Assembly: GCA_038231135.1 (NCBI GenBank)
Contig: JBBRLX010000014.1
Location: 28,604-92,603, forward strand
DNA: 64,000 bases
Origin: Candidatus Eiseniibacteriota bacterium
Lineage (GTDB): Bacteria; Eisenbacteria; RBG-16-71-46
Reading direction: 5' to 3'
Shown: positions 38,796-62,144 of the stretch, one piece after another
Numbering within the stretch: position 1 is the stretch's first letter
Layout: each line of letters starts with the position of its first letter
Position numbers and translations under genes: made by a program
Notes under the pieces: model-generated
Database searches by the model: none
The model's input: only the letters and a program-made list of their open reading frames with translations
What the model was told of the DNA's origin: nothing

Positions 38796-39041
38796 TCAAG
38801 CCTCGTATTCCTCGGTGAGCAGCGCACCCACGCGGGCAGGCGTGTCGGCGATCGCGATCACCGATGACCCTTCCACCGCGTTCTCCCGCAGCCAGTCCCG
38901 CAGGGCTTCGAGCCCCATGCGATCCATGTCGCGCCGGCACAGGACGACCGTGCCATCCGGGAGCACATCACCGGTCCGATGGGTCTTCAATCGAGGCTGT
39001 TCACGCACGCTGAGTTCCCGTACGTAGCGAGGCTCTTCCAT
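38796..39041 (-). CDS. Small hypothetical protein (81 aa)
   Basis: Strong RBS AGGAG before ATG 39041; sigma54-like promoter upstream. Confidence 0.65.
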   Translation of the reverse strand: MEEPRYVRELSVREQPRLKTHRTGDVLPDGTVVLCRRDMDRMGLEALRDWLRENAVEGSSVIAIADTPARVGALLTEEYEA

Positions 39042-39126
39042 GGTGAAACTCCTGCGAGGAGGATGCGAGGGACAACTTCCGTACATGGGTTTCGTGCAAG
39101 CCGGCAGGGCCGCGGACGGGTGTATG

Positions 39127-39142
39127 GCAGCTTCCGTACCAG
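39127..39142 (-). promoter_or_regulatory. Putative sigma54 promoter
   Basis: CTGGTACGGAAGCTGC (GG-N10-GC), about 85 bp upstream of ATG 39041 and divergent from the activator gene. Confidence 0.6.
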
Positions 39143-39705
39143 CCTCGAACCCCCGGGCAGATTGCAACGTCGGGTTTTGTCGCCATTGCGGCAGCGAGAC
39201 TTGTGCGCCAGCGCACCTCCGAACGCCGGACCCCGTCCCGAAGCGGTCTGGTAAGTCTCACATTCGATCACCCCTTTGGAACAAACCCGGGGAATCCTCA
39301 CGCAGATTGGAATGACTCGTACAACCATAAGCCCTGCAAAGCGATCCGCGCTTCGGCGTCGTATTCGGCGATCCAAGCGCATGATTCGTCCAAAACTCAA
39401 TATTTTGCAGTTGGTTACGCTAGTTCGTTGATTACGGCGATAATCGTCGGAAATCGGGTTAGGACAAATCATGTATCTTGCTTACCCACAATGGTTTCCA
39501 TCGCCACATCCACACGAAAAATACTCTTGATTTGCTCCGATTTCGTGTGTAGCTTCATGAACTGCAGCGTGCCTCACGACGATTCGCCCCCCGCGGGTAC
39601 TGCCGTGTTTCTCCGGAACTGAACGCTGCGACAGCACACGTCAGACCGGTTCTCAGCACGGCCGGAACCAAAGGAGACGACCGCGTCCCCTCGCGCGTCC
39701 GACGG

Positions 39706-42700
39706 ATGGAACGTTTCGCAGGGCGCTACCGGCTGCTTCGCCGCCTCGGCCATGGCGGTATGGGTGAGGTGTTTCTCGCGCGCGACCTCGCGTCCGGCGC
39801 CGAGTGCGCGGTCAAGCGGTTGCACGCTCACCAGGCCGCACACGCCGAATCCCTGAAGCGCGAATTCGAAGCGCTCACCCGGCTCCGCCATCCCACCATC
39901 GTCGCGGTGCACGACTTCGCCACCACGGCGGCGGGCATTCCGTACCTGGTGATGGAGTACGTCGCGGGCCTGCCGGCGGATCAGGCGCTGACGCGGGGCG
40001 ACTGGGCATCGCTCTACGCCGTGGCCGCGCGCATGACCGAGGGCCTCGAGGCGTTGCACGCGGCGGGTGTCGTGCACGGCGATCTCAAGCCGTCGAACGT
40101 GCTCGTGATCCCCGGTCCGGCCGGGGCGCCGGTGCACGACGTGAAGCTCGTGGACTTCGGACTCGCCGGCCTGCGCTCGAATGAGGGTTCCGGCAGCCGC
40201 GGCACTCCCGGGTTCGCCGCCCCCGAGGTCGTCGCGGGCGCGGCGCCGACGGCGGCCTCGGATCTGTACGGCCTCGGGGCCACGCTATATGCGCTGATCG
40301 CCGGGCGCCGCCCCTTCGAGGGCGAGCATCGCTCGAGCATCCTGGAGCAGCAGCGGCAGGGACCTCCGCGCGCCCACGAGCTCGAGCAGTCCGGGGCGCC
40401 GCAGCCGCTGATCGAAATGGTGCTGGCGCTACTGGCGCCCGAGCCCGCCGAACGTCCGCGGGACGCGCGTGAAGTGCGCCGCGAGATCGAGCGCATCCAT
40501 CGCGGCGTGCGGCGGCCGCTCGCCGATCATCTGCAGGCGGCGACGCTCGTCGGCCGCGAGCGTGAGCTGGCCCGGCTGGAGCAATGGATCGGGCAGACAC
40601 CGGTCCGGCCGCCGATCACGTTCGTGACCGGCGAGACCGGCATCGGCACCACGGCACTGCTGCGGGAGCTCGCGACGCGATCGGCGCTCGAGGGCCGGCC
40701 GGTACTCTCGCTGTCGTGCGCGGCGCTGCCCGAGCCGGGCGCCACGGCTCGCAGCCTCGTCGAGCTGCTGGTCACACACGACGAGGGCGGCGCAACGAGT
40801 CCGCTGCCGGCGGTCTCGCCGGCGGACGACACGGCGCCGTGGGTCGAGGCGGCGGCGGCCGCGGCCGACCGGCTGGCCGCCCGGCCGTTTCTCGTGCTGC
40901 TCGACGACGGCGATCATCTCGATTCCGTCTCGGCCGCGTTCCTGCGCCGGCTGGCGCTGCGCGAACCGGCGGTTCCGCTCATCTGGATCATCGCGCGATC
41001 CCGGGCTGCCGAGGCAGAACACGATCGCCTGCTCATCGAGTCGCGTCTCGCGCAGCGGGTTGTGCTGGGACCGCTGCCCGAGCCGGACGTGCGCCGGCTG
41101 GCCGCGGCTCGGCTCGGCGGCGAGGTCCCGGAGCAGATCGCCGGCTTCCTGTGGCGCAACGGCGAAGGACATCCCGGGCTCACCCTCGACCTGCTTCGCG
41201 GCCTGGTCGACCGCGGGGCGCTCACCGACAGCGATCTCGGCCTGCTGGTGAATGAGGACCGGCTCGCGGACATGCCCAGCGCGGGGGACTACGTCCGCGC
41301 ACGGCTCGCGCGACTCGAGTCGACGACGCCGGCGCGACGCGCGCTGGTGGCGTCGCTCGCCGTGTGCGGTCCCGCGCTCCCGGTCGACGAGCTCCACCGT
41401 CTCGTGCCGGGCGTCGGCGATAATGACGTCAAATGGGCGATCGCCGAGGGCATGGCGGTGCGCGACCCGCTGGGCCGGTTGCTGCTGCATCCGCCCTCGT
41501 TTGGCCCGCACGTGGAGGCGGCGCTCGACGAGGCCGCGCGCACGGCCCTGCATCGCGCCGGGCTCGCGTTGCCGGGCCGGACGCCGCGCCAGCGGTTCGC
41601 GCACCTGCGGGCGACTGGCGATACCGCGCGCGCGCTCGCCGAGGCCGCGGCGGCGTTCGCGCAGCGTCCGGACGTCGAGCTCGCGATCGTCGCGGCGTCG
41701 ATGGCCGACGCCGCGGACCCCGCCGCATCGGGGACGTGGCACGCGCGCGCCGCCGAACTGCTGCGTTCCCGCGGCCGCTACGCGGCGGCGATTCCGCACC
41801 TGCGCAGCGCACTCGCCGCGACCGCGTCCGGGCAGTCGCCCGTGGCTCGCGACGAACTCTGGCTCACGCTCAGTACGGCGACGCTGCGCACCGGCGACCC
41901 GCGGGGCACCGTGGCCGTCGTCGCCGAAGCCCAGCAGGCGGGGCCGGCGCCGGCGCTGCACGCCCGGCTGCTCGGCAACCGCGCGGCAGCCCACGCCATG
42001 CTGGGCGACGATGCCGCAGCGGCCGAGGACGCCGCCGAAGCGCTGGCGCGGGCGATGGCGGTCGACGATCCGCTGGCGGAGGGCATGGCGGCCGACATCG
42101 AGGTCAATCTGGCGCGGGCGCGAGGCCGCCTGGACGTGGCGCTGCAGTGGGCGCAGCGGGCCGCCGCCGCGTACGGTCGCGCCGGCAGTGCGCTCGGCGT
42201 GATCCGCTCGATGGGTCACCGGGCCTCGATTACCCGCGAACTCGGAGATCTGGACGGAGCCGAGCAACTCTCGCGCGCGGCGGTCGAAGTGGCTCGCGGC
42301 GGCGAGAATCGCCTGCCGCTCACCGAGCAACTCCTCAGGCTCGCGGCGGTGCTGGTGGAATCGGGCCGCTGGTCCGAGGCGCGCACGGCCTGCGCCGAGG
42401 CGCTGCGGCTCGCGATGGAGGACGGGCGCTCGATCGAAGTGTCGGTGGCCATGACGCATCTCGGGCAGATCGAGGGCCTGCTGGGCCGCCCGGCAGCGGC
42501 CCGGCGGCATTCACGCGCCGCCGTCCGGCTCACGGCGCGCCATCAGCCGTCCTTGAGTTCCTATGCCTGGCGCTCGCTCGCCCAGGCCGAACGGATCGGC
42601 GGCCGCCTCGGGCTCGCGGCGGTCGCCGCGCGTCGCGCGCGCGAGCGGCTGCGCGAGGACTCGATCGTCGAGTCCCGGTGGTGCAGCATCGAATACGGCC

Positions 42701-44740
42701 GCGCGCTCGCGCAGCGCGAGCTGTGGACCGAGGCGGGTGCGGTGTGGGACGCGGCGCTGGACCAGGTCAGCGTGTCCTCGAGTCCCGAGACCGCGCTGCT
42801 CATGGTGCTGGCTGGCCGCGCTGCGCTGCGCCGCAATGCCATCGACGAGGCCGAGACCCGCCGCGCCGGCGCCGAGGAATGGGTGTCACGCCACCGGCTG
42901 CCGTGGATCTCGTCCCATCTCCGCCTGCTCGACGCCGAGCTGGAGTTCGCGCGCGGGCTGCTGCGGGAGGGACTCGAGCACGCGAAGGCGGCGCTCGCCG
43001 GGTTCGCCGCGCTGTCGGCTCCGGCCGAGCGCGCCGCCGCGATCCTCGCGATCGCGCATCGCGCTCCGGCGCTCCCCGACGCGCGCGAGATGGTGGTCGC
43101 CTGGCTGGACGACGCCGTGCGCATCTTCGAGCGCATCGGCGATCGCAACGGCCGCGAACGCGCGCTCACGATCTCGGTCGAATGGCTGCGGCGCTCCGCG
43201 ACCGCGAGCACGGTGATCCGCGATCAGGGGCTGATCGAGCGGGTGTGCTGGCTGCTCAATTCCCTCACCGACCTCGACGAGCTGATGCGCCGCGCGATGC
43301 GCTCCGCCGTGGAGCAACTCGACGCCGAGCGCGGCGTGCTGCTGCTCGCCGACCCCGAGACCGGTCAGCTCGTTCCCACCGCCGAATACGGGCCCATCGA
43401 GCCGAGCACCCGGGCCGAGGCGCTCGGCTACAGCCGGCGGGTCGTGCAGCACGTGACCCGCGGCGGGGACAGCCTGCTGGTCGTCGACGCGGATTCCGAC
43501 CCGCGCGCCGCGAGCGAGAGCGTGGCGGACATGCGGCTGCGCTCGATCCTGTGCGTGCCGTTGTTCATGAACGAGCGCCCGATGGGCGCCGTGTATCTCG
43601 ACGATTCCCGGCGCACCCACGCCTTCGCCGAGGCCGACCGCGGCATGATCGAGGGGTTCGCCCACCTGATAGCGGTGGCGATCGAGAAGAGCCGCCACCA
43701 CGACGAGATCCGCCAGGAGAACGAGCGGCTGGGGGGCGAGAACCTGTCGCTGCGGACGGAGGCTGTGACGCGCGTGCGCGCGCAGGGCGTGATCGGGTCC
43801 AGCAGCCCGATGCAACGCGTGCTGGGCATGGTCGAGCACGCGGCCCGCACCGACACCACGGTGCTCGTCACCGGCGAGAATGGCACCGGCAAGGAGGCTG
43901 ATCGCGCGCACGCTGCACCACAGCGGGCGGCGCGCGATGGGCCCGTTCGTCGCGGTCAACTGCGGGGCGCTGCCGGACACGCTCATCGAGAGCGAGTTGT
44001 TCGGCATCCTCGGCAACGTGGCCACCGGCGTTCGCGCCCGACAGGGCAAGTTCACGGCGGCGAACGGCGGGACGTTGTTCCTGGACGAGGTCGGCGACAT
44101 GCCGCTGACGCAGCAGGTGGTGCTGCTGTCGGCGATCGCGAGCAAGGAGGTCACACCGCTCGGCGGCAACAAGCCGCTGCCGCTCGACGTCCGCATCATC
44201 GCGGCGACGAACCGCGACCTGCGGCGCCAGGTCGAGCTGGGCCAGTTCCGCGAGGATCTGTACTACCGGCTGAGCGTGATCGAGGTGGAGGTGCCGGCGC
44301 TCCGCGAGCGCAAGGCCGACATCCCGGCACTCGCGCGGCAGTTCCTCGACCAGTTCGCCCGCCAGCAGGAACGCCAGGCGCCGCGGTTGTCACCGGATTT
44401 CTTCGCGGTGCTGATGCGCAGCGACTGGCCGGGCAACGTGCGCGAACTGCAGAACTACATCGAGCGGCTGCTGGCGATGACCCCCGGCCACTACCTGCGC
44501 CCCGATCCCCCGCCGCGTGATCTCGAGTCGGTGCATACGCGGCGCACGTCGCAGCATCGCGTGCTGCTCGATGCGGTGGGTGACGTCGAGCGCAAGATGC
44601 TGATCGACGCGCTCGAGCGTTCGGGCGGCAACCAGAGCAAGGCCGCCCGTGAATTGGGACTCACAGAGCAATCAGTGCGCTATCGACTCCGCAAGTACAA
44701 CCTCACGCCTCGCCGAAAGAAGCCGTTTCGCCGAAATTAG
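39706..44740 (+). CDS. Ser/Thr kinase - STAND-like NTPase - TPR - GAF - sigma54 AAA+ - Fis HTH fusion (frameshift at ~43897)
   Basis: LGHGGMGEV, HGDLKPSN, DFG; LVGRERELARL..GETGIGTT; TPR region; GAF (SILCVPL..GAVYLD); GENGTGKE, extra G, then LIAR..VNCGALP..ESELFG, LFLDEVG, AATNR, FREDLYYRL, WPGNVREL, NQSKAARELG. Joins ORFs 39706-44520 and 43880-44740. Confidence 0.9.
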
Positions 44741-44910
44741 CGGCATCATGCAACTATTTGATGTCATTTGCGTTCCGCAATATGAATGCCGGCTTCGCGG
44801 TTTTTAGCGAGATGAATCCCGCCCGTAGCCCCGTCCGGCCGCGAGTTCCCAGTGACACAACCCTATGCACTCGTGATACCTAGCGACTTTCGACTGCGAC
44901 CACGCAACGA

Positions 44911-44925
44911 GGGCACGGCATTGGC
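44911..44925 (+). promoter_or_regulatory. Putative sigma54 promoter
   Basis: GGGCACGGCATTGGC (GG-N10-GC, GGCAC core), 50 bp upstream of ATG 44976. Confidence 0.6.
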
Positions 44926-44975
44926 CTTATGCGATAGCGGCGGCGAATTCCCGCCGCTCCTCATGGAGGTCGCAT

Positions 44976-45257
44976 ATGAACCGCATCCCAATGGCCCTGT
45001 TGGCAGTGTGCTGCTCTGCTGCCCTCGTATCGATCGCCCACGCCCAGTCTACCGATCCGAGCGGCGCCGGCGGGGGTCGGTGCACCCTCGCCGGGAGCGA
45101 CACGGGCGGGCCGGCGCAGTCGTGGTCACCGTGGCGCTCGTCATTCCTGACACTGCCGAGCCGCCTGTGGTCGTTCACGCCCCTGGTGTCCTTCCGGATC
45201 CCCTGGACCGCGCGTCCGGGTGTCACGACCGCGATGCGGAGTGTAGTGCGGCGGTAG
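44976..45257 (+). CDS. Small secreted protein (93 aa)
   Basis: RBS GGAGG; signal peptide ending AHA-Q; Trp/Arg/Ser-rich mature part. Confidence 0.65.
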   Translation: MNRIPMALLAVCCSAALVSIAHAQSTDPSGAGGGRCTLAGSDTGGPAQSWSPWRSSFLTLPSRLWSFTPLVSFRIPWTARPGVTTAMRSVVRR

Positions 45258-45703: not shown

Positions 45704-45807
45704 CGGTTGGGGCGGCACGCCGCGGGCGTGCCGCTGCCCGCCGCCGGTCCGGGCCAACGTCGCATTCACTTGACCGCCCGCGCCGGTGCCGCGCACGATC
45801 GCCGGCC

Positions 45808-48807: not shown

Positions 48808-48823
48808 GTCGGGGCCGCGCCTG

Positions 48824-48867
48824 ACCCAGCGAACGGCCACCCCAAAGAGGTGGCCGTTTCGCTGGGT
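48824..48867. terminator. Long hairpin between convergent genes (putative bidirectional terminator)
   Basis: ACCCAGCGAACGGCCACC-loop-GGTGGCCGTTTCGCTGGGT, an 18-bp stem with one bulge. Confidence 0.7.
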
Positions 48868-48900
48868 GAACTCCCGTCCGGCGCGGGTTCGGCCGCCGTG

Positions 48901-51900: not shown

Positions 51901-54900
51901 CGGGAACGGGTTGCCGTAGTAGAGCTCGGCGCCGATCGAGCCGGCATCGAGGTTCCAGATCGCGATGTTGCCGTCGGGGAACAGCCCGACCGCCCGATGC
52001 CCGTTCGCGGTGGCCGCCAGCGACACCATGCGCGACGGCGCGGCATGCTGCGGCGACGTGGCGACCAGCGCCTTCGTCGCGGCATCGATGAAGAACGCGC
52101 GGCCCACGCCGCCGGCCACCACCACGCGGCCATCCGGCGACACCGCCAGCGCGCCGATCGTATCGGGCATCGCGACGCTGTCACCGGGAGCATAGGAACC
52201 CTTGTAATCCACCCAGTAAACGGCACGGGCGCTGTGGTTGAGCGCGTTGCCGGTCGTCGCGACGATCATCTGGTCGCTCAGCGGATCCGCCGCGACCGCG
52301 GTGCCGTCGCCGAAGGACGACAGCGCGATCGTGGCGCCGCCGGACGGGAAGTACACGGTGGCGCCGCCGTTGTGTCCCGCGGCGACCCAGAACGCGCCGC
52401 CGTCCGGCTGCCACGCGCCGTTGAAGGGACGGTCGTTGTGGCCGAAATTGTTCACAGTCACGCTCGACAGCGTGAGCAGCCGCTCGGGAGCATCCTCGCG
52501 GAGTTGGAACCATTCCACCGGCGGCAGGCATCCGGCGTTGAACGGCACGAGGGCGAGCAGGCTGCCGTCGGGCGACACGGCCATCGTCACCACGTTGCCG
52601 ACGGCGCCGCACAGCTGGGTCGGGGCGAGCAGCGCCGAATCGCCAGTGGCGTGCGGGTGGAAACTCTCGACGCGGTCCATGACGCCGATCGGCACCGACA
52701 GTGTGCGGTCGCCGGCCTTCGCGAGCGACAGATCGACGCTTCGCTGGCTCAGCGCCGGCACTGCAAACGCCAGGCCCTGACCGCGGGAATTCGTGGTCGC
52801 GACGGGCGCGCCGTCCAGCTCCGCGTGGTAGCCGGCGATCGGTCCCGAGGCGAATCGGACCGCGACCTGGTCGCCCGTCATCGCGACGCGGGGCGACACC
52901 GAAGCGATCACGTTGTTTCCGGCGCCGGAGTAGAGCCCAACCGTCTTGTCGCCGAAGTTTGCGGTTGCCGTCACGAGCCCGTCGCTACTGGTGGCGATCG
53001 CCACCGGGCTGCGGCCGGTCGCCACGACGCCGTCGAACACGCCGTTCGGCTCCAGCAGATCGATCTGTCCCGCCACCGAATTCACCACCAGGAACGCGCC
53101 CGACTGAGGCGCGATCACGATGTCCCGCATGCGGCCCACGAAGTCGATGTGGCCCGACGGGCAGGTCAGGCCCAGGAGGCAGCCGAAGCGCACGGAGTTG
53201 TCCGCAGAGCCCAAGCCGGGGGCGAACGCCTGCGAGCCGTCGATGGACACGACGAGCCCGTTCGCGCACGGCGTCGGGTTGATCGACTGGAACTGCCCGT
53301 TGGACAGGGCGATTTCGATCAGACCATGCGACGAGGTCGAGGCGAACAACGACTGGAACGGGCCGTCCTGCACGTGCGGCCGCGGTGGCTTCGAATCGAC
53401 ACCCGCCCGGTGCGGCGATGCCGTGACGGTGAGCGTCGAGACGCCGAGACCGCCCGTCAGCGTGACGCCCGGCAATTCGATCGAGCGGGTCACGCTGCGG
53501 TAGGTGGCGGACGTGGGATCGACGTCGAGGACCCAGACGTGCGAGCCGCCGGATTCCGTGACGAACGCCGTCTGACCGTCGGGTGACGCGTAGATGCCGT
53601 CGGGTGCGCCGGGCATGGGGATGCGGACATGGATGTGCCCGAAGCCGGCGGAGCTGGCGTCGGTGACGAACTCGAGCACGTCCCCCGAGTCGGGCCGCGT
53701 CGCGTAGGCCCGCAATCCGTTCGTCGACAGCGTCACGTGCGAGAGTCCCGGGGTGAGTTCCAGATCCTCGCCGCGATAGTGCGGAGACTGTGGATCCAGG
53801 CTCACGGTCGAGAATCCACCGGAACCGACCGCGAACACCGCCCTGCCGTCGGGACCGACCGCGATGTCCGAGGGCGGGAACGACAGCGTAACGCTGCCGT
53901 TCGGGATCGGAACCCCGGGACTCGTGCGGAGCACCGTGTAATTGAAGTCATTGCTGGCTCCGGCGTCGGTGACGATGCGGATCGGCCCCGACGTCGCGAA
54001 GTCCGGCAACTGGGCGACGACCGAGGTCGAGGTGCCGAACGTCAGCGCGGACGACGAGCCCTTGCCGTCCGGGATCTCGACCGTGACGAACCCGGTGAAG
54101 CCCTGCCCGTTGATCGTGATCAACGCGCCCGGCGGAGCCTGCGGGGGCTGGATGTTGAAGATCGCGACCGCCGGAGTCGCCAGCGTCTGGAAGTGCGTCA
54201 GGTACGTCCCCGCGAGCGGCACCCCCTCGCGATCGGTTAGCTCGGTGCTCAGCTCGATCTCGTAGGACGTGCCGAACGACAGCGGCGAGTCCGGCGTGAA
54301 GATGAACGTGCGGTTGTTGTCGAGGATCTGCGCGGAGCCGCCGAGACGCCCGGTACCGCCCGTCAGCCGCAGCGCGAACGCCGCCGCCAGCGTCTGCGGG
54401 TCGACCGGCTCGCTGAAGTTCACGAGCACGCGCCCGTCGATGCCGACATCGCTCGCGTTGGCCGCCGGCAGCGCGCCCACGATCGTGGGAGGCGTGATGT
54501 CGCGCGGCGTCAGCATCTGGATCGACAGGCTGCCGGCGGCGGTCACGGAAATCGGCGAGATCAGCGCCGGATTCTCGGTGCCGTCCTCCTGTGTGTCCCA
54601 CCATTCGGTCTGGAAATTGGTCTGGGCACTCGCCCGCACGCGGTCGTTGATCGCGGCCGGCACCAGGCCGGGCACGCTACCGTCGAGCGGATCCACGCGC
54701 ACGCCGTAGTTCCCCGGCGGCAGCCGCAGCAGCGAGAACCGGCCGGACTCGTCGGTGTAGTCGGACGCCACGGCGTGAACCGGCGCGTTCGAGCCGTCGA
54801 GCGCCCACGCGGTGACCAGCGCGCCCGGCACCACGGTGTGGTCGCTGCCCCGGCTGAGCGTGCCGTGGATACGGCCGAAATCGACGGCCAGCGCCGGGGC

Positions 54901-57900
54901 CGGATAGGCCGCCGCGATTGCGGCGCGATCGTCGTCCTCGAGGCTCGCGGCGCCGGTGCCATCCTGCAGCACCGGGAACATCGTGGCGTCCTGCACGCCG
55001 CTGTGACTCAGCCCCAGCATGTGGCCGATCTCGTGCGTCGCCACGCTCTGTAGATCCACGCTGCCGGGCAGCGGCCCGGTGGTCGCGGTGCGATAGATCA
55101 CGGTCGGGTTGAAGATCAGATCACTGTCGACGATCTGCCCCGGCAGCACGATGTGGTCGTCGAACGCGGCGCGGCTCGTGAACGACGTGGTCGGCGTCAC
55201 GGCGATCACGTCGGGCGGGAACACCAGCGCGTCCTGGAACGTGATCAGGTTCACGCCGTCGAGCACGTTCGCGGTGTTCCTGGGGCTGCGGGCATCCTCG
55301 ACCAGCGGGACGCTCGCTCCAGGCACCGCCAGCCACGACGCGACGGCCGCGCGGATCGCGGCCACGTCGCTGCCGTCGTGGATCGCGGGATCGCCCGACT
55401 GGGCGATCGTGAAGTGGATCGGCCGCGACGCGTTCAGCCACGTCTCCACGTGGCGCATGGTGGCGGTCGAGTCGGGGCAGCCGTCGCCGTTGGCGTCCTG
55501 TCCAGCGGCGCTCACGAAGGTGCACGGATCCACCGGGTCCGCGATGCCGTCGTGGTCGGCGTCGATGAATTGCTGATAGACGCGGATGTCGTCGAGGTAC
55601 GGCAGCACGCTCGGCCCGCGCGGACTGTCGTTGCCCTCGGTGAACATCAGTTCTTCGCGGTCCTCGACCTGGAGCTGGATCTGAACCGAATCCACCGGAA
55701 AGTAGCCCTCGCTGCCGAGGTCGTCCGGAATCACGATCGTCGATCGCGCACGATGGGGCGCGCTGATGTCGCCGCCCGTGCCGTCCGAGGAATAGGCGAA
55801 CGTCGCGTACGCGTGCTCGTACGGGTGGCGGTCGCCGGCATGCTTGAACAGCGCGGCCACCGCGAGCACCCGGCGCTGGCCGAGCGTTGCGAGCTTGCCC
55901 GAGTAGTCCAGGCTCAGCGGCTGGTTCGGGTCGGCGAGCGCGATCCACGGCGAGGTCAGGCGCGCATCGGTCCCGGGGTCCACGTGGCCGCCGGGCGACA
56001 GGAACGTCCACGCGCACGACGGGTCCGCGAAGTCGAAGCCGGTGCGCAGGCTGACGTTCGTCTGCGGCAGCGGCACGTCGCGGATGAACGTCTGGTTGTC
56101 GATCGTGACGCCATAGGCCCCGTTCAACGCGGACAGCGTCCATGCGCCTGTCGTGCCGTCCTCGAACGTGACCGGCGGCGTGAGGTTGCCACCGTCGTCC
56201 ACGATCTGGACGTTGTCGACGATGATGCCGCCCGGATCGGTCCCCGGCTCCCCGCCGTCCTCGTTCGAGAACTGCCGGTTGCTCTGGCACAGGATCTGGA
56301 TCCGCGTCACGGCGCCGAGCGCCGTGTCGCCGAGGCTGAACGTGAAATTCTGGACGCCCTGGCCGGTGATCTTCGCGGGCCCGCCCGATTGCGACAGTCC
56401 GAGGGTCACCCAGCTGCCGTCCGAGGCGAGGGCCCGCGCTGAAAAGAACCCGAGCTGATCGTCGTTGAAACCGATCGCGTCGTACTCATCCGTGTTCATG
56501 TGGAGATAGGCATCGAAGCTCAGGCGGGGATGGGCGCCCGCGGAGATCGTGATGGGCGGCGACGTGAATCGCTGGCTCCAGCCGCTGCCGTACCCCTGGG
56601 AGGTCACCCAGTTGGCGATCTCGTCGGGCGCCGACGTGGAATCCGCGCCGAACCACAGCGCGCGCGCGCCCATCGACATCGAGGTCACCTTGCCCGCCAG
56701 CGGGCTCAGCGCCCCCGCAGGGTCGAGGCGCAGGATCATCGAGCGCGAGTCGATGAATGCGATGCCGCCGCCCGTTGCGGGAGCCATGCCCGTCAGGCGG
56801 AGGACGTGGTTGTAGTTGCCGAGCGCCGCCGCCGCCGGGGGCCCGAACAGCCGGGTGCTGCCGGCAACGGGTACGAGGCTGCCACTCGTCAGCATGAGGA
56901 CGATCCCGTTCACGAAGCCGCTCTGGACGCCGATGTAGAGCGTGCCGTTCGAGACCGCGACCACCTGCGGGTGACCGAACGGAGCGAACGCCGCCGGATC
57001 CGCGCCCGGCTCGGCGTCGATGGTGCCCACGGCCAGATCGATGGTCCGGACCCGGTCGCCCGCGTCCATCGCCAGGTAGAGCTTCTGATCTCCCGTTCCC
57101 AATGCGATGGACGTCACGTCGTCGAGCGTGGCCAGCGTGGCCGGACCGCCGTCGCCGGAGTTGCCCGCGACACCGGTGCCCGCGATGGTCACGACGCGGC
57201 CATCGGTGCGCAGGATGCGGACCTTGTGGAGCGAATTCTCCATCATGAAGATGTTGCCGGCGTGATCGACCTGCAGCGCCGTGGTGCCGCGCAGCGCCGC
57301 CGCGGTGATCGTCGTGTCCTGGAGCGAGCCCGACGGGTTGCTGGCGATCTGCACGGGGACGCCCCCGCCCCGCGGAATCCGGTACAGGAATCCGTTGTCG
57401 TCCGAGTCCACGCCGGCGATCACGTCCCCCGTGCTCGGGTCGTAGGCGATCAGGAACGACGGGCTGGGGCCGACGTCCGGCAGATCCGCGAATTTGCGCA
57501 TCACGTTCAGGGCCGGGTAGACCTCGATCAGCCGGCCACCCTGGGACGGAAATTCGCAGTACAGGTAGCTGCCCGAATCGGGGACCGCGCACACCGATCC
57601 CGGCTGCTGGATCGCCGTGCCCGCGACCGCGGACGGCAGCGGATTCGGGCTGGCGGTGTAGACGGCGTTGAACACGTCCTGATTCACGACGAACCGGTCC
57701 TGAACATGCGTGAACACCCGGCTCGAACGATCCTCGGCCGTCCAGCCGCGCGGATTGCACGCGCCCGCGATCGTGTCGAAGCTGTGGGACGACAACAGGA
57801 ACGTGTCGCTGGCGCTCGTCGTCGCGGCGCCGATCCGGGCGGCACCCGCGAACGGCGGCCGCACCGGCGGGGCGATGACGCGGTCCGCCGGTGCCGTGCG

Positions 57901-58101
57901 ACGCGTTCGCGGCCCAAAGATGGTGGCCGGCGTCGCGACCCGGGCGGCGGATGCGGCGACAGATGCTGGTGGGGCGCCGGCTCGCGCAGCGGATCGCGAT
58001 GCCGCGCCGACCGGCGCCGCGAGGATCGCGAGCGCCGTGAGCGCGAGGAACGGACGCCGGAGATCGGGCGGCAGGATCGAAGTCGCGGGGATGCAGGCCA
58101 T
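48901..58101 (-). CDS. Giant (~3066 aa) secreted multidomain matrixin-type (M10) metalloprotease with NHL/YVTN propellers, Ig/IPT domains and FlgD/T9SS-like CTD
   Basis: Signal peptide from ATG 58101; NHL (TIAGTGVAGNSGDGGPAT); TSP3-like DADHDGIAD; HEIGHMLGLSH plus Met-turn ATMFP; Big_5 (VNFSEPVD); IPT; YVTN; PNP..GRRVATL..GIYFVR CTD. Confidence 0.9.
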   Translation of the reverse strand: MACIPATSILPPDLRRPFLALTALAILAAPVGAASRSAARAGAPPASVAASAARVATPATIFGPRTRRTAPADRVIAPPVRPPFAGAARIGAATTSASDTFLLSSHSFDTIAGACNPRGWTAEDRSSRVFTHVQDRFVVNQDVFNAVYTASPNPLPSAVAGTAIQQPGSVCAVPDSGSYLYCEFPSQGGRLIEVYPALNVMRKFADLPDVGPSPSFLIAYDPSTGDVIAGVDSDDNGFLYRIPRGGGVPVQIASNPSGSLQDTTITAAALRGTTALQVDHAGNIFMMENSLHKVRILRTDGRVVTIAGTGVAGNSGDGGPATLATLDDVTSIALGTGDQKLYLAMDAGDRVRTIDLAVGTIDAEPGADPAAFAPFGHPQVVAVSNGTLYIGVQSGFVNGIVLMLTSGSLVPVAGSTRLFGPPAAAALGNYNHVLRLTGMAPATGGGIAFIDSRSMILRLDPAGALSPLAGKVTSMSMGARALWFGADSTSAPDEIANWVTSQGYGSGWSQRFTSPPITISAGAHPRLSFDAYLHMNTDEYDAIGFNDDQLGFFSARALASDGSWVTLGLSQSGGPAKITGQGVQNFTFSLGDTALGAVTRIQILCQSNRQFSNEDGGEPGTDPGGIIVDNVQIVDDGGNLTPPVTFEDGTTGAWTLSALNGAYGVTIDNQTFIRDVPLPQTNVSLRTGFDFADPSCAWTFLSPGGHVDPGTDARLTSPWIALADPNQPLSLDYSGKLATLGQRRVLAVAALFKHAGDRHPYEHAYATFAYSSDGTGGDISAPHRARSTIVIPDDLGSEGYFPVDSVQIQLQVEDREELMFTEGNDSPRGPSVLPYLDDIRVYQQFIDADHDGIADPVDPCTFVSAAGQDANGDGCPDSTATMRHVETWLNASRPIHFTIAQSGDPAIHDGSDVAAIRAAVASWLAVPGASVPLVEDARSPRNTANVLDGVNLITFQDALVFPPDVIAVTPTTSFTSRAAFDDHIVLPGQIVDSDLIFNPTVIYRTATTGPLPGSVDLQSVATHEIGHMLGLSHSGVQDATMFPVLQDGTGAASLEDDDRAAIAAAYPAPALAVDFGRIHGTLSRGSDHTVVPGALVTAWALDGSNAPVHAVASDYTDESGRFSLLRLPPGNYGVRVDPLDGSVPGLVPAAINDRVRASAQTNFQTEWWDTQEDGTENPALISPISVTAAGSLSIQMLTPRDITPPTIVGALPAANASDVGIDGRVLVNFSEPVDPQTLAAAFALRLTGGTGRLGGSAQILDNNRTFIFTPDSPLSFGTSYEIELSTELTDREGVPLAGTYLTHFQTLATPAVAIFNIQPPQAPPGALITINGQGFTGFVTVEIPDGKGSSSALTFGTSTSVVAQLPDFATSGPIRIVTDAGASNDFNYTVLRTSPGVPIPNGSVTLSFPPSDIAVGPDGRAVFAVGSGGFSTVSLDPQSPHYRGEDLELTPGLSHVTLSTNGLRAYATRPDSGDVLEFVTDASSAGFGHIHVRIPMPGAPDGIYASPDGQTAFVTESGGSHVWVLDVDPTSATYRSVTRSIELPGVTLTGGLGVSTLTVTASPHRAGVDSKPPRPHVQDGPFQSLFASTSSHGLIEIALSNGQFQSINPTPCANGLVVSIDGSQAFAPGLGSADNSVRFGCLLGLTCPSGHIDFVGRMRDIVIAPQSGAFLVVNSVAGQIDLLEPNGVFDGVVATGRSPVAIATSSDGLVTATANFGDKTVGLYSGAGNNVIASVSPRVAMTGDQVAVRFASGPIAGYHAELDGAPVATTNSRGQGLAFAVPALSQRSVDLSLAKAGDRTLSVPIGVMDRVESFHPHATGDSALLAPTQLCGAVGNVVTMAVSPDGSLLALVPFNAGCLPPVEWFQLREDAPERLLTLSSVTVNNFGHNDRPFNGAWQPDGGAFWVAAGHNGGATVYFPSGGATIALSSFGDGTAVAADPLSDQMIVATTGNALNHSARAVYWVDYKGSYAPGDSVAMPDTIGALAVSPDGRVVVAGGVGRAFFIDAATKALVATSPQHAAPSRMVSLAATANGHRAVGLFPDGNIAIWNLDAGSIGAELYYGNPFPAGTVLSELVPAPNGHGVIAGCRNRASLFRIDTAALPPAPLEAPIPGTSRAIARTPDGRHLVVSSDDGLQTADTLRFVSLSEATTLALVSGGNQEVLAGQPLPVPVVVHLSDAAGHPQQGAIVEFALDAATQGSIGDSLRQDRFTDADGQAQVSWTMPAAPDQVTLHVRAPGLPVAPLAAHATAAGDPNAAPPQLTGLGPADGSVGIAAGSEVFARFSQQMNLETITEQCHLLVGPDVVPGAWRSSDEGHTAFFTPDQPLPYLAEGTVVVGLGVLDAQGQPLAQGGTAHFTVQAAPALSVATVSPPAGAVGTIVTLNGEGFSPVGALDVVQINGQFAPILGASPRTLVVRVPEFTTSGDVAVHVGAAASNHLHFEVLPAGGIGGVIADTLPTRPSPIALVVTPDGRRMYVASARTNTVGVVDIKKASEIAVVPVGSNPRAIAMLPDGSRSYVVNYDGDDVSIIGTNPDSADTYNRVVGTIKVGHQPTGVIVLPNGPQVLVLNKGDSTVSVVDAQRGNSTFDFVIRNIPLPSSGGVIAINPDGTRAYVTTGDGLTVIDLQSFVIRNIPIPSGGQTITISPDGGLLYVTSNDSHLLVIDLSPGGDFRVIRNIPLPSSGGVITINPDGTRIYVALPDGNTVLVYVVSAGTTNPGGTSTVPGPAVTLTLLVTLAVGQSPAAIAVDPFGRFFATANQGSDDLSLVLTTDAAPTVHVMFPNGHETLIPGNLTNLMWVTDVIPNGQTADLSISRDLGQTWEPIATGIANTGSFAWLVSGPQTTNGTSETYSALFRATVHSVFGAVVTDASDAPFAIFDATTPTLLLAFDAAPAAAGMELHWQLAEPARFPRLAVERAEAEAGPWQPIDAGAHPVGERTVGLDGGARPGHTYFYRLVADAAGVPVVLGSIGGVTMPVTEFALDPITPNPARGEVGIDFAVAKETQVRLSVLDVAGRRVATLADGVHKPGLYHARWAGSSGGGHTPAGIYFVRYEAAGRAFVRRVAYMR
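50010..50340 (-). repeat. Three near-identical propeller-blade repeats inside the giant gene
   Basis: VIRNIPLPSSGGVIAINPDGT, VIRNIPIPSGGQTITISPDG, VIRNIPLPSSGGVITINPDGT; DNA ATGTTGCGGATCAC occurs three times. Confidence 0.8.
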
Positions 58102-58118
58102 GGTCGTGTCCGGCCGCG

Positions 58119-58694
58119 TCAGCGGCCGGCCCCCTGTGCCATCGCGCGCTGGATCTCGCGCACCATGTCGTCGAGCGGCATCCCGGGAGCGGCGTTCCCG
58201 GCGGGCGCCGAAGCCAGCCGCCGCACGTCCTTGATCGCGAACCCGGGCGCGGTGCGCTGCACGCTCGCCACCCCGGTGCGCGCATCGCGGACGATGTCGA
58301 ACTTGCCCTGCGCGAGCCCGCTCACCTGGGCCTGGCCCCGCGGATCGCGCCACACGAACACCAGCGCCTCTTCGCCACGCTGGAACAGCGGCCCCCCGGG
58401 CACCGAGACCTTGATGCCGTCGAGTTCGCCGCCGAGCTGGGTGAGCGTGAGGTGATCGCCGCCGCCGCCTTTGATCGAACGGCTCACGTGCACGTCGATG
58501 TCGGTGAAGATCCTCCGGTGGTCGTCGCTCCAGCGCGCATTCGTCGCTTCCACGGTCCCGATGACGATGTCGCTGGATTCCCGCGTGAGGCTGACGGTGT
58601 CGAGATGACGCATCGTGGTGGCAAATGCGGACGGGACGGCCGGCGCGAGGACGGCTGCCAGAGCGACTGCCGTATAAAGGCGACGAGGGCGCAA
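58119..58694 (-). CDS. Secreted TIMP/NTR-like OB-fold protein
   Basis: RBS AAGGAG plus TTG 58694; signal peptide ending AFA; L..ESSDIVIGTV...IFT...V.RSIKG...GG...P.F..GEEALVF; ends 17 bp before the matrixin gene. Confidence 0.75.
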   Translation of the reverse strand: MRPRRLYTAVALAAVLAPAVPSAFATTMRHLDTVSLTRESSDIVIGTVEATNARWSDDHRRIFTDIDVHVSRSIKGGGGDHLTLTQLGGELDGIKVSVPGGPLFQRGEEALVFVWRDPRGQAQVSGLAQGKFDIVRDARTGVASVQRTAPGFAIKDVRRLASAPAGNAAPGMPLDDMVREIQRAMAQGAGR

Positions 58695-59063
58695 GGGAGG
58701 CTCCTTGGTCAGGATGCGGCCGGGCGGCAGCGGAACGTTCGGGCAGCGGCCGACCGTACCGGGCTCGGACCTCGGGATCGGACGATTATCAATTTGCGAC
58801 CGGTCCGCCGCAATGCCCAATACGGTGGATCCACCCCGAAGTACAGGTCGGCTGAGAAATAGTTGCTGGTACACGACGGATCCTGCCGGGGTGATCCGGA
58901 TCCGGCCGGCCGGCCGGTGGGATCCCGCTACGGCCCGGGGCGGGCGCCCGGGTGTCACCGGCGGTCCAGGCGGCTGGAGATTGGGCCTTGCCACGCGGCA
59001 GCCGCGTCACGATATTGGGCCGGTCACGCACGTCGAGCGCCGCGTGATCCGCTCGGAGGATCC

Positions 59064-61490
59064 ATGATCGTAGTGCTGTTGGTGGCCGCGCTGCTCGCCG
59101 CTCCCGCTGCTCCCGACTCTGCGGCCGCCCGCGTGGAACCGGACACGCTCGCCCGCGTATCGCGTCTGGCGCGGGTGCTGCGGCTCCCGGAGCTGGTCGT
59201 GAAGGGCGAGCGGTTCCGCGACGCGTTCTCCTCCGAGTCGGTGCATCCGATTCCCCGCGAGGTCGTGCGCACGCTGCCGATCGACCGGGTCTCCGAATTG
59301 TTCGCGTTGCAGCCCGGCGTGGTGGCGCGCGGCGAAGAGCTCCACGTGCGCGGCGGCCGGACCGGTGAATCGCGGATGACGCTCGCCGGCATCGGGCTCG
59401 ACGATCCGGTGCGCGGGTCCTCGATGGAGCTGCCGTTGCTGGCGCTGAGCGACGCCGACCTCGCGAGCGGCGGCATCGATGCGGATCTGGGCGGCGCGCT
59501 GGCCGGCATCCTCCGGTTGCGCACGCTGGACCCGGGCGAGCGTTGGAACGGCGTGGTCGAGTGGCACACCGATGGCCGCCAGTTCACCCATTACGACCGC
59601 GCCGGCGCGCGGATCGGCGGGCCGCTGGGGTCTACCGGGGCCAGGTTGATGGCCACGTTCGAAGGCACGCTCGACGACACGAACCTGCCGAATCTGCGGA
59701 CCTCCGAGCGCGATCACGTGCTGGGCGGCTCGTTCGGCTGGCGCGCGGACAACCGCATGCTCGGGCATCTGAAGCTCGCGACCGCTCCCGCGGGCTCGCG
59801 CTGGACGCTCGAGCTCGCGGGCAACCGGCGCCTCGAGCGGCCCTATGACCCCGCCTGGTTCCTCAACGGCTTCACCACGCCGTGTCTCGATCCCGACACG
59901 TGCGTGCGGGGGCCGGGATTCAGCCTGATCCCGCAGCCCGGCTTCACGCGCTACGTGGCCGCCGATCACCACGTGGTCACCGACGACCGGCGCGCCATGG
60001 GCGCCCTGATGTGGGAGAGCCTCGGCGAGCGGCGCCGGTTCGTGGTCACCCTCGGCTGGCTCGGCGGGAGGTCGGTGACGTCGATCGACGGCACCGAGAA
60101 CACGGCGTATCTCGACCCCGCGAACTTCCCCGCGTACGGGCTCTACGATTCGGCGGACAACGATCCGTTCCATGTCTACGTCGGCGACGAGCCGTGGTAC
60201 CACAAGACCAGCTCGAACCGCTGGACGCTGCGCGCCGACGATCAGCGCACCACGACGCGGGGCGACGTGATCAAGTTCGGCGCCGGCACGACCTACGACG
60301 AGGTCGCGCTGCGCGACATGGACTACTCGACGCCGGGATTCGGGCTCGACTCGGTGCGGGCCTACCACGCGTTCGCCCCCGGCGGCTGGGCCTATGGCCA
60401 CGTGCGCTGGGTGCTCGGCGGCATGGTGGCGAACGGCGGATTGCGGGCGGAGTACTTCACCGCCGGCCCGCAGGCGCAGTCGCAGAGCTTCCCCGGCGGC
60501 GGTTCGGGCACCTGGTCGCTGTCGCCCCGGCTGGGCGTCGCCTATCCCGTCTCGGTGCGCGACGTGTTCTCGATGTCCTACGTGCGCGTGCAGCAGAATC
60601 CGGATCGCGACTACCTGTACGACAACCGCGTGGACATCAGCAATCGCGAGCCGATCGGCAATCCGTCGCTGGTGCCGGCCACCGAGATCTCCTACCAGGC
60701 GGCGGTGAAACACGTGTTCGACGAGCGCTGGGCGATGCAGGGCGCGGTGTTCTACCGCGACGTATTCGGCCTGATCGGCGCGATCAACCGGCAGCCGCGG
60801 CTCGCCAGCCCGCAGCTCCACTACGAGAACTCGGACGACGCGAACGCCAGCGGTGTCGAGTGGACGCTGCTGTGGTCGGGGCGGCCCGGCAACTTCGCCG
60901 AGGTTCACTACACGTACCTCGATGCGCGCGGCACGCAGTCGCGGGAGGAGGGCGTGCCGTACGGCCCCAAGCTGACCGCTCGGCCCCAGGCGCTCGGCCC
61001 GCATCCGCTCGACTGGGATCGCCGGCACTCGTTCAACGCGGGGCTGCACTTCGAGCGGCCCCGCGTGGGTTCGATCGCGTGGACCACGTCGGTGGGATCG
61101 GGACTGCCGTGGTCGCCGCGGGTGCTCCGGCAACTCGAGGTCGATCTGGACGCCGAGAACTCCCGGCGCTTCGGCTGGAGCGAGAACACCGACGCCGCGC
61201 TGCGCTGGTTCGTGCCGGGCCCGGTGCGGGGTCTCACGCTCGGGCTCGACGTCCGCAACGTGTTCGACTCGCGCACCGATCTCAGCGCGACGACGGACGG
61301 CTATCCCAATCTGACCATCAACACGTTGTACGACGACTATGGCGCGTACCGCACCGAGACCGGCCTGCCGGGTGGCGCCTACTACAACGATCGCAACGGG
61401 GACGGCCAGCCGGGCTGGATCCCCGTCCACGACGCCCGGCTGCTGGGGCCGCCGCGTGCGATGCGCATGAGCCTGGCCATGACCTGGTGA
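59064..61490 (+). CDS. TonB-dependent-receptor-like outer membrane beta-barrel
   Basis: RBS GGAGGA; signal peptide; plug LQPGVV..LHVRGGR.GE; GGIDA..GGALAG; LSPRLGVAYPVS; LDWDRRH; C-terminal Trp. Confidence 0.88.
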   Translation: MIVVLLVAALLAAPAAPDSAAARVEPDTLARVSRLARVLRLPELVVKGERFRDAFSSESVHPIPREVVRTLPIDRVSELFALQPGVVARGEELHVRGGRTGESRMTLAGIGLDDPVRGSSMELPLLALSDADLASGGIDADLGGALAGILRLRTLDPGERWNGVVEWHTDGRQFTHYDRAGARIGGPLGSTGARLMATFEGTLDDTNLPNLRTSERDHVLGGSFGWRADNRMLGHLKLATAPAGSRWTLELAGNRRLERPYDPAWFLNGFTTPCLDPDTCVRGPGFSLIPQPGFTRYVAADHHVVTDDRRAMGALMWESLGERRRFVVTLGWLGGRSVTSIDGTENTAYLDPANFPAYGLYDSADNDPFHVYVGDEPWYHKTSSNRWTLRADDQRTTTRGDVIKFGAGTTYDEVALRDMDYSTPGFGLDSVRAYHAFAPGGWAYGHVRWVLGGMVANGGLRAEYFTAGPQAQSQSFPGGGSGTWSLSPRLGVAYPVSVRDVFSMSYVRVQQNPDRDYLYDNRVDISNREPIGNPSLVPATEISYQAAVKHVFDERWAMQGAVFYRDVFGLIGAINRQPRLASPQLHYENSDDANASGVEWTLLWSGRPGNFAEVHYTYLDARGTQSREEGVPYGPKLTARPQALGPHPLDWDRRHSFNAGLHFERPRVGSIAWTTSVGSGLPWSPRVLRQLEVDLDAENSRRFGWSENTDAALRWFVPGPVRGLTLGLDVRNVFDSRTDLSATTDGYPNLTINTLYDDYGAYRTETGLPGGAYYNDRNGDGQPGWIPVHDARLLGPPRAMRMSLAMTW

Positions 61491-62134: not shown

Positions 62135-62144
62135 AGTTGGTTCC

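What the first reader, a model, noticed from the sequence alone, without database searches (positions are those of the whole stretch)
38796..61490. Candidate undescribed extracytoplasmic proteolysis/signalling locus: kinase-STAND-bEBP, small target genes, exported CHAT protease, giant matrixin with TIMP-like partner, TonB-like barrel
Seen: within 23 kb, a one-component kinase/NTPase/TPR/GAF/sigma54-activator fusion sits between two -24/-12 motifs, each upstream of a small gene. It is followed by a solo HTH gene and a TPR-CHAT protease with intact His/Cys and an export-like N-terminus. Convergent to these are a 3-kaa CTD-tagged M10 protease co-transcribed with a small OB-fold protein, and then a divergent OM barrel. 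Known: CHAT domains are caspase-like proteases gated by TPRs, and STAND-TPR proteins are ligand-sensing switches. Inference: a sensor-regulated two-protease surface system, used either for protein foraging (barrel imports peptides) or for intercellular conflict/signalling, where CHAT may process the giant protein or the small peptide. I know of no described system with this gene set, but the co-location could be chance.
Basis: partly seen in the sequence, partly recalled or inferred. Interest (0 to 1): 0.85.

Follow-up and report, generated by a model that had tools for sequence, protein, structure and literature searches.

The report
Caspase-like protease paired with giant matrixin
Only three genes of this block travel together across related bacteria: a caspase-like protease, a giant collagenase-like protease and a small protein predicted to fold like animal TIMP inhibitors, all with export-type signals; they likely form a protein-cutting relay outside the cell that would signal through a membrane kinase encoded elsewhere, while the other neighbours are unlinked.

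Summary
The genes are real, but the 23-kb block is a mosaic, not one system. (1) The TPR-CHAT protease, the giant M10 protease and the TIMP-fold gene form a conserved unit. Of 206 genomes in the phylum, 26 carry the giant and all 26 have the CHAT (25 clear, 1 partial); 4-5 of the other 180 do. In 15 genomes they are neighbours, in four gene orders, and CHATs left without the giant are mostly decayed. Distant relatives add two genes, which this genome keeps on another contig: an MtxA-fold exported protein with an invariant Arg in a disordered linker, and a membrane Ser/Thr kinase. (2) The kinase-STAND-bEBP, its downstream -24/-12 site and the ~95-aa exported peptide are a separate module (15 of 15 orthologues), not found beside the trio elsewhere. 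Its frameshift is absent from one sequencing-run contig. (3) The 'solo HTH' is an IS3 orfA remnant, the barrel is backbone, and the upstream -24/-12 site is unsupported. Best model (0.45): an extracytoplasmic proteolytic relay into the kinase. No cleavage, binding or expression was shown. The organism is probably Ca. Eisenbacteria (inferred from named homologues).

The parts
45808..48807 (+). TPR-CHAT cysteine protease with export-type N-terminus, 999 aa, His860/Cys907. Core member.
   Evidence: PF12770 E 9e-72 and TPR_12; dyad intact in all 24 giant-associated orthologues whose CHAT domain is covered; hydrophobic N-terminal segment in the full-length orthologues printed
48901..58101 (-). Giant matrixin (M10), 3066 aa: signal peptide, variable N-terminal cargo, Asp/Cys-rich repeat, M10 domain (zinc motif at residue 1023), Ig/IPT domains, beta-propellers, FlgD/T9SS-like tail. 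Core member.
   Evidence: the M10 profile's best PDB matches are MMP-8, MMP-1 and karilysin
58119..58694 (-). TIMP/NTR-fold protein with signal peptide, 191 aa, no N-terminal cysteine, 17 nt upstream of the giant. Core member.
   Evidence: model pLDDT 88.7; best structural match N-TIMP-3, Z 11.3, rmsd 2.6, 117 aligned, residue 1 on residue 1; start codon and RBS
48824..48868 (.). Strong hairpin between the convergent stop codons of CHAT and giant; terminator-like (inferred)
   Evidence: RNA fold of 48801-48905
39706..44740 (+). Kinase-STAND-TPR-GAF-sigma54 activator, split in the assembly by one extra base at 43896. Separate module.
   Evidence: GAFTGA loop replaced by an xxAT(G/D)V loop in the window and in 14 of 14 orthologues printed
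44729..44742 (+). Imperfect palindrome (CGC-N8-GCG) at the 3' end of the activator gene; candidate enhancer site (inferred). Separate module.
   Evidence: similar elements recur in the first 330 nt of the 15 orthologous downstream regions; loose pattern, no shuffle control
44909..44928 (+). Conserved -24/-12 (GG-N10-GC) sigma54-type promoter site. Separate module.
   Evidence: 15 of 15 orthologous loci; rank 3 of 1573 in the window under a matrix built from relatives only; rpoN present
44976..45257 (+). 93-aa peptide: signal peptide ending Ala|Gln, then a Pro/Gly/Ser/Thr-rich part and a basic end; probable target of the activator. Separate module.
   Evidence: positional counterparts of 90-112 aa, all with Ala-Gln after the signal peptide, in 15 of 15 loci
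45431..45703 (+). IS3-family transposase orfA remnant with no orfB; not part of either module
   Evidence: HTH_Tnp_1 E 4e-14; 4 of the 7 closest homologues (51-58% identity) are followed by a ~290-aa orfB
59064..61490 (+). TonB-dependent-receptor-like barrel; backbone gene at the edge of the inserted block
   Evidence: homologues at E<=1e-30 in 39 of 41 genomes; same neighbours in the congeneric genome with other genes in place of the block
38796..39041 (-). 81-aa unknown protein; unlinked passenger
   Evidence: homologues in 4 of 205 other genomes, none within 1.5 kb of a kinase-activator gene

Best explanation
The TPR-CHAT, giant matrixin and TIMP-fold genes are a co-inherited unit that likely works as a proteolytic relay outside the cytoplasm: the TIMP-fold protein is predicted to hold the propeptide-less matrixin latent, the giant would act as the surface-exposed input, and the CHAT likely cuts an MtxA-like adaptor at a conserved Arg, which would switch a membrane Ser/Thr kinase. 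Shown: co-inheritance, repeated clustering, intact active-site residues, the two folds (as predicted models), the invariant linker Arg, and the adaptor-kinase gene pair. Inferred: export and localisation, inhibition by the TIMP-fold protein, activation of CHAT through its TPRs by the giant or a fragment of it, Arg specificity, the adaptor as substrate, and the kinase as output. In this genome the trio sits in an inserted block; the adaptor and kinase genes remain on contig C8. The sigma54 activator with its peptide, the IS3 remnant and the barrel are neighbours by rearrangement.
For: Giant in 26 of 206 genomes; CHAT orthologue in 25 of them plus a partial hit in the 26th, and in 4 of the other 180 (5 with the diverged G014 copy). 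The same genomes within patchy genera (4 of 16, 2 of 18). Adjacent in 15 genomes/16 loci in four orders. Of 5 CHATs without a giant, two have lost the His (one also the Cys), one is truncated and long-branched, one lies at a contig end, one is intact. G086 and G089 carry adaptor-CHAT-TIMP-giant-kinase in one strand order. The adaptor model matches MtxA 4z29 (Z 14.6, 162 aligned); its residues 103-118 are disordered and hold an Arg kept in 19 of 19 aligned sequences and 14 of 14 further ones that cover it. MtxA yielded a stable delta1-141 fragment on trypsin treatment (PMC4439547, passages). In two giant-less genomes another CHAT family sits beside the adaptor-kinase pair. TIMP-fold gene beside an M10 gene in 64 of 80 loci from many phyla and fused to M10 proteins in 3 loci.
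Against: No cleavage, binding or expression was tested. In 10 of 26 genomes the CHAT lies apart from the giant, and in this genome the adaptor and kinase lie on another contig. The adaptor occurs in 13 genomes without the giant, and in 9 of 11 fetched giant-less loci no CHAT was seen beside it (several on short contigs), so it does not depend on this CHAT. This genome has a second exported CHAT (C2) of the family found beside the adaptor in G105 and G118, which could be the adaptor's real protease. The two dead CHATs are sisters in the quick tree (support 87), so they may be one event. G023 (84% complete) has an intact CHAT with no giant or TIMP gene found. Arg specificity of CHAT rests on recalled knowledge of separase-like clan CD enzymes. 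In Listeria the TIMP-like protein is a substrate of its metzincin and inhibition was not what the passages read report (PMC8235301). Kin are not independent, so the Fisher values overstate.
Confidence: 0.45

Rival explanations
1. The CHAT is a dedicated maturation or release protease for the giant: it cuts the giant or removes its TIMP-fold inhibitor during export, with no signalling role. The adaptor-kinase pair is only a frequent neighbour.
For: This CHAT family tracks the giant far more tightly (26 of 26) than the adaptor does (22 of 26, plus 13 genomes without giant). In this genome and G001 the trio moved without the adaptor and kinase. A CHAT activating a second protease that has its own inhibitor is published (SAVED-CHAT/PCaspase/PCi; 10.1101/2023.06.23.546230, passages).
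Against: No linker-like conserved site stood out in the giant: 9 Arg positions are kept in at least 80% of aligned orthologues, apparently inside folded domains. Five-gene order in G086/G089, and kinase or adaptor beside the CHAT or giant in most family loci.
Confidence: 0.27
2. The system is a conflict or non-self recognition device: the variable cargo of the giant binds other cells, phages or predators, and the cascade triggers a defensive or dormancy response through the kinase.
For: Cargo varies from none to about 2700 aa (FG-GAP, ASPIC, NHL, fn3, PD40 repeats); patchy distribution and mobility; CHAT-protease-inhibitor-kinase sets act in defence elsewhere.
Against: No toxin or effector domain in 11 giants scanned; no defence genes among 64 neighbours scanned with Pfam; the core is conserved rather than hypervariable.
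Confidence: 0.13
3. One reading: the kinase-STAND-bEBP controls the whole block, and the barrel imports the peptides that the two proteases make.
For: Physical adjacency here is real. Earlier unverified scan notes describe cyanobacterial CHAT/DUF928/kinase clusters that include a STAND NTPase. One genome (G132) has a distant barrel (26%) two genes from the giant.
Against: No linkage in 15 activator loci or 4 closest barrel loci; no co-occurrence (p=0.30); trio present in families where the STAND region was not found; an IS remnant separates the modules; the congeneric genome has other genes at this site.
Confidence: 0.06
4. The two proteases are independent foraging enzymes that are co-selected for the same niche and cluster for co-regulation, without acting on each other.
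For: The genome has 118 proteins with a similar C-terminal tail and many exported peptidases.
Against: Described CHAT enzymes are narrow switches (SAVED-CHAT did not degrade casein); decay of CHAT after loss of the giant; CHAT seen beside 3 of 12 giant-type and 0 of 68 smaller matrixin loci.
Confidence: 0.09

Closest known systems
Mtz-Tim of Listeria monocytogenes (PMC8235301, passages)
   Same: Adjacent secreted metzincin and TIMP-like gene.
   Different: Tim is a lipoprotein downstream of a small protease and is cleaved by it; here the TIMP-fold gene is upstream, has no lipobox Cys at the mature start, pairs with a 3-kaa protease and is tied to a CHAT protease.
Potempin A / karilysin of Tannerella forsythia (PMC9890683, passages)
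   Same: OB-fold inhibitor encoded directly upstream of an MMP-like protease secreted with a C-terminal sorting signal.
   Different: PotA is a lipoprotein with a non-TIMP bilobal mechanism; karilysin has a propeptide; no CHAT or kinase.
Animal TIMP-MMP pairs (MEROPS I35/M10A; PDB 3cki, 1uea)
   Same: Fold and N-terminal register of the inhibitor; MMP-like catalytic domain.
   Different: No Cys1 or disulfides, no C-terminal TIMP domain, 8-10% identity; inhibition untested.
MtxA plus CHASE2-cyclase gene pair (PMC4439547, passages; PDB 4z29)
   Same: Exported beta-domain/linker/Ig/TPR protein encoded beside a transmembrane receptor.
   Different: The receptor here is a Ser/Thr kinase with outer TPRs; CHAT and matrixin partners; MtxA's own function is unknown.
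SAVED-CHAT / PCaspase / PCi / PCk cascade of type III-B CRISPR (10.1101/2023.06.23.546230, passages)
   Same: Gene-set logic: a CHAT protease, a second protease, its inhibitor and a Ser/Thr kinase.
   Different: That system is cytoplasmic and cA3-gated; here TPR-gated, with export signals, a metalloprotease and no SAVED domain.
LapA/LapG/LapD-type regulated periplasmic proteolysis (recalled; only a weak retention-module hit, E 5e-4)
   Same: Giant surface protein, periplasmic cysteine protease and membrane receptor.
   Different: Different protease fold and secretion route; the weak hit is in the separate adaptor, not in the giant.

Membership tests
CHAT proteases (PF12770) | CHAT domain above the Pfam cut-off, preceded by TPRs | tested here: met
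   242 bits vs 24; TPR_12 119 bits
CHAT proteases (PF12770) | His-Cys catalytic dyad | tested here: met
   His860, Cys907
CHAT proteases (PF12770) | Proteolytic activity and P1 specificity | not testable with these tools
   needs an assay
Matrixins (M10A) | HExxHxxGxxH motif and Met-turn | tested here: met
   invariant in 29 of 29 aligned domains; PF00413 49 bits vs 24
Matrixins (M10A) | Cysteine-switch propeptide (motif recalled) | tested here: not met
   motif absent from the window protein and seen in 1 of 121 zinc-motif frames, position not checked
TIMP (I35, PF00965) | N-TIMP/NTR OB fold with the mature N-terminus in register | tested here: met
   Z 11.3 to N-TIMP-3 (1..163 on 1..121), Z 9.0 to TIMP-1; Foldseek top hits NtA and TIMPs
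TIMP (I35, PF00965) | Cys1 with the N-terminal disulfides; Pfam match | tested here: not met
   mature start is mostly Thr-Thr or Thr-Gln, no conserved Cys; no Pfam hit
TIMP (I35, PF00965) | 1:1 inhibition of the metzincin through the alpha-amino group | not testable with these tools
MtxA/DUF928 (gene on contig C8) | Ig-plus-TPR C-terminal fold | tested here: met
   4z29 first in both searches (E 3e-7; Z 14.6, rmsd 2.8, 162 aligned)
MtxA/DUF928 (gene on contig C8) | PF06051 above cut-off | tested here: inconclusive
   13 bits vs 26; nearest Atlas cluster carries DUF928 in 26% of members
MtxA/DUF928 (gene on contig C8) | Adjacent CHASE2 cyclase | tested here: not met
   the neighbour is a TM Ser/Thr kinase with TPRs in 13 of 15 loci, the other 2 end at the contig
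Sigma54 enhancer-binding proteins | AAA+ activator domain, Fis-type HTH, rpoN and a -24/-12 target | tested here: met
Sigma54 enhancer-binding proteins | GAFTGA loop | tested here: not met
   conserved variant loop in window and 14 of 14 orthologues printed, beside a variant -12 element
STAND NTPases | AAA_16 domain with Walker A lysine | tested here: not met
   domain present (52.6 bits) but Lys missing here; kept in 6 of 14 orthologue rows, 5 of which were misaligned
IS3 family elements | orfA followed by orfB | tested here: not met
   orfA only; remnant
Type IX secretion cargo | C-terminal sorting domain above cut-off | tested here: inconclusive
   TIGR04183 21.9 vs 23; FlgD_ig 20.1 vs 27; several orthologues pass FlgD_ig
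Type IX secretion cargo | Secretion machinery in the genome | not tested
   no search made
CRISPR/CBASS-linked CHAT cascades | SAVED sensor or cas genes at the locus | tested here: not met
   none among 30 window proteins and 64 neighbours scanned

The most novel reading that the evidence does not exclude
These bacteria run an extracellular caspase-MMP-TIMP-receptor-kinase cascade: a TIMP-held giant matrixin with exchangeable binding domains gates an exported caspase-like protease, which cleaves an MtxA-like pro-ligand at a fixed Arg to fire a membrane kinase. This would be a bacterial parallel of animal proteolytic ligand activation and would give MtxA/DUF928 proteins their function as cleavable pro-ligands.
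Probability: 0.25. Interest if true: 0.88.

Novelty: new variant of a known kind. Interest (0 to 1): 0.66.

Why it matters
The CHAT proteases with known substrates in the papers read here are cytoplasmic immune switches; exported ones had no described substrate in my searches. This finding names a small, testable set: a CHAT family whose presence and active site track one giant matrixin-TIMP pair, and a candidate cut site in an MtxA-fold protein whose function has been open since its structure was solved. It also gives a cysteine-free TIMP fold in exact N-terminal register beside a propeptide-less MMP-like enzyme, a direct test of whether TIMP-type inhibition exists in bacteria. Separately, it yields a clean sigma54 activator-promoter-peptide module with matching deviations in the GAFTGA loop and the -12 element.

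Tried and rejected
Whole-locus synteny: none of 15 activator loci or 4 barrel loci held CHAT, TIMP-fold gene or giant core. Consensus -24/-12 scan: chance level. A genome-wide scan with the module's matrix gave 189 sites above 12 bits and no clear second peptide target among the top rows printed. A look-alike between the TIMP-fold mature start and the stretch before the M10 domain did not co-vary across orthologues and was dropped. G082 was dropped as a CHAT orthologue: the hit is a kinase-TPR frame without the dyad region. Sequence search of the TIMP-fold profile against PDB found only weak nanobody matches. No RNA holder was listed among sequencing runs. The chance figure for linkage printed assumes independence and is not used. 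The CHAT tree is the quick version only. Paper searches (10): Eisenbacteria+protease (7 papers, none relevant by listing); TIMP+bacterial+matrixin+prokaryotic (2); CHAT domain+TPR+signal peptide+metalloprotease (0); CHAT+caspase-like+bacteria+gene neighborhood (9); TIMP-like+bacteria+OB-fold+inhibitor (1); potempin/mirolysin/inhibitor (40); DUF928+CHAT (0); CHASE2/CHAT/FecR/protease (46); MtxA/TPR/adenylate cyclase (425); DUF928 or CHASE2 (45). None of the listings seen describes this gene set; the library lacks most subscription papers. Passages of PMC8195603 and PMC522809 gave nothing on it. No supplements were read. Earlier-finding look-ups by place, by sequence and by the first word set were empty.

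Full report
Observation. The window is G000:C14:28604-92603. A homologue of the TIMP-fold protein at 63% identity is named Candidatus Eisenbacteria, so the organism is probably of that group (inference). Pfam confirms the domain calls for the kinase-STAND-TPR-GAF-activator, TPR-CHAT, M10 giant and barrel. Four details need correcting. The activator is split by an extra base at 43896; one contig of run X1 lacks that base and X2 contigs break there, and orthologues are single frames, so the gene is probably intact in the population. Both runs may be the source of the assembly. The 'solo HTH' is an IS3 orfA without orfB. The upstream -24/-12 site has no support. The sorting tail is just under the cut-offs. 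One X2 contig spans 44242 to the end of the stretch laid (57499), so the order from the activator's end into the giant is real.

The block is an insertion. In the only congeneric genome (G001) the FTP-propeptide gene, the barrel and the flavin reductase are neighbours, with two other frames where the window has its 20.8-kb block. Backbone genes are 58-69% identical to G001, block genes 32-47%. The usual sites of the activator, of the TIMP-giant pair and of the CHAT in relatives are empty in G000, on contigs C37, C8 and C11.

Module 1, activator and peptide. All 15 orthologous loci fetched carry, within about 330 nt behind the activator, a GG-N10-GC site and then a 90-112-aa gene with a signal peptide ending Ala-Gln. 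A matrix built from relatives ranks the window's site 3 of 1573, and rpoN is present. The GAFTGA loop is replaced by a conserved variant. This supports sigma54-dependent activation of the peptide gene (inferred). The module is not tied to the proteases: STAND region in 56 of 88 family genomes and 0 of 117 outside the family, 15 of 20 with the giant versus 41 of 68 without (p=0.30), and on a shared contig in 0 of 15 (comparison of contig numbers; assemblies are fragmented).

Module 2, the protease trio. Among 206 genomes of the phylum the giant's M10 region scores 177 bits or more in 25, the next hit 97; G153 adds a fragmented copy. The CHAT's N-terminal/TPR region scores 89 bits or more in 30 genomes, unrelated hits 64 or less; G082 was dropped. 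Thus 25 of 26 giant genomes have the orthologue by this query, and G093 has a 223-bit CHAT-domain hit on a short contig. Of the other 180 genomes 4 have it (G007, G013, G023, G092), plus a diverged copy at the usual site in G014. CHAT lies beside the TIMP-giant pair in 15 genomes (16 loci): convergent, divergent, downstream in tandem and upstream in tandem; it lies apart in 10, and one is undetermined. The dyad is intact in all 24 giant-associated copies that cover it. Without the giant, G007 has lost His and Cys, G013 has lost His, G014 is shortened and long-branched, G092 ends at a contig border right after adaptor-CHAT, and G023 (84% complete) is intact. G007 and G013 are sisters, possibly one event. 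The trees of CHAT and giant share several clades, as kinship alone would also give.

The giant keeps a fixed core (M10, Ig/IPT, propellers, tail) and a variable N-terminal cargo of FG-GAP, ASPIC, NHL, fn3 or PD40 repeats, up to about 2700 aa. Its zinc motif and Met-turn are invariant, its profile's best solved relatives are MMP-8, MMP-1 and karilysin, and it lacks a cysteine-switch motif. The small partner folds with pLDDT 88.7; its best match among 48,161 chains is N-TIMP-3 (Z 11.3), with residue 1 on TIMP residue 1. TIMPs bind the zinc through the N-terminal amino group (PMC9890683, passage). Such a gene lies beside an M10 gene in 64 of the best 80 loci of a scan across records titled Acidobacteriota, Planctomycetota, Myxococcota, Latescibacterota and others (best 80 of 191, not a random sample) and is fused to M10 proteins in 3 loci. 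The pair as such is therefore common and has published analogues (PMC8235301, PMC9890683). CHAT appeared beside 3 of 12 giant-type and 0 of 68 smaller loci.

Two further members. G086 and G089 have adaptor-CHAT-TIMP-giant-kinase on one strand; G090 and G092 show part of it. In G000 the adaptor (C8:69843-70751) and the kinase (C8, ending at 72633; kinase domain, one hydrophobic segment, TPRs) are adjacent. The adaptor's model matches MtxA 4z29 first in two searches. Its residues 103-118 have pLDDT under 50 and contain (L/M/V)-Arg-(G/S/T/A), the Arg kept in 19 of 19 and 14 of 14 further sequences down to 27% identity. The adaptor is found in 22 of 26 giant genomes and in 13 without. In two of those a different CHAT family flanks it, and G000 has that family too, on C2.

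How it most likely works. After export (inferred from N-terminal sequences), the TIMP-fold protein would cap the matrixin in place of a propeptide. The giant, with exchangeable binding domains, would be the input; its strict tie to this CHAT suggests that the TPRs recognise the giant or a product of it. The activated CHAT would cut the adaptor's exposed Arg linker, and the Ig-TPR half would then act on the kinase's outer TPRs. I give this 0.45. The main rival (0.27) is that this CHAT only matures or releases the giant, since it follows the giant more tightly than the adaptor and moved with it here. Binding and cleavage remain untested.

Novelty. Each part has known relatives, and earlier unverified scan notes describe cyanobacterial CHAT/DUF928/kinase clusters with a two-partner-secreted filament and many bacterial TIMP-matrixin pairs. 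The union of the two, with co-inheritance and active-site decay as evidence, was not found in 10 paper searches or 6 look-ups of earlier findings. I rate it a new variant of a known kind, interest 0.66. Papers were seen as passages only (PMC9890683, PMC8235301, PMC4439547, 10.1101/2023.06.23.546230, PMC8195603, PMC522809); supplements were not read and may list such loci. G026, marked unpublished, enters only the tallies.

Noticed in passing
window 37990-38112: About 120-bp intergenic element with terminal inverted repeats, with 75-93% identical copies at more than 10 other places in the genome; MITE/REP-like. It marks the left edge of the inserted block, and run contigs break there.
   Followed up: partly
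window 4003-4022 (-): Best-scoring variant -24/-12 site in the whole genome under the activator module's matrix (23-24 bits), in an intergenic stretch upstream of the 3252-3776 (-) gene; a possible second target.
   Followed up: partly
G000 C2:244416-247601: Second exported TPR-CHAT with intact dyad, 46-47% identical over its length to the CHATs beside the adaptor-kinase pair in G105 and G118.
   Followed up: partly
L055-L063 (relatives), behind the peptide gene: In most family genomes the activator-peptide module is followed by a ~180-aa gene weakly similar (27-32%) to the activator's AAA+ domain; not found in G000.
   Followed up: no
window 61682-62135 (+): Exported ~150-aa protein with W/Y-rich repeats; homologues lie convergent to the CHAT at its usual site in several relatives.
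   Followed up: partly
window 37145-37990 (+): Stand-alone fungalysin/thermolysin propeptide (FTP) protein without a catalytic domain; conserved in G001 (58%).
   Followed up: no
window 38100-38720 (-): 206-aa frame with no Pfam or NCBIfam match at the left end of the block.
   Followed up: no
L073 (G159), L041, L087, L090: Giant orthologues up to 4046 aa with N-terminal FG-GAP/ASPIC or InlB-B-repeat cargo; an optional ~300-aa propeller is inserted at one fixed loop in 7 of 16 measured.
   Followed up: partly
L087:16003-16938, L090:17074-18072: A DUF6588 beta-barrel gene follows the kinase in the two five-gene loci.
   Followed up: no
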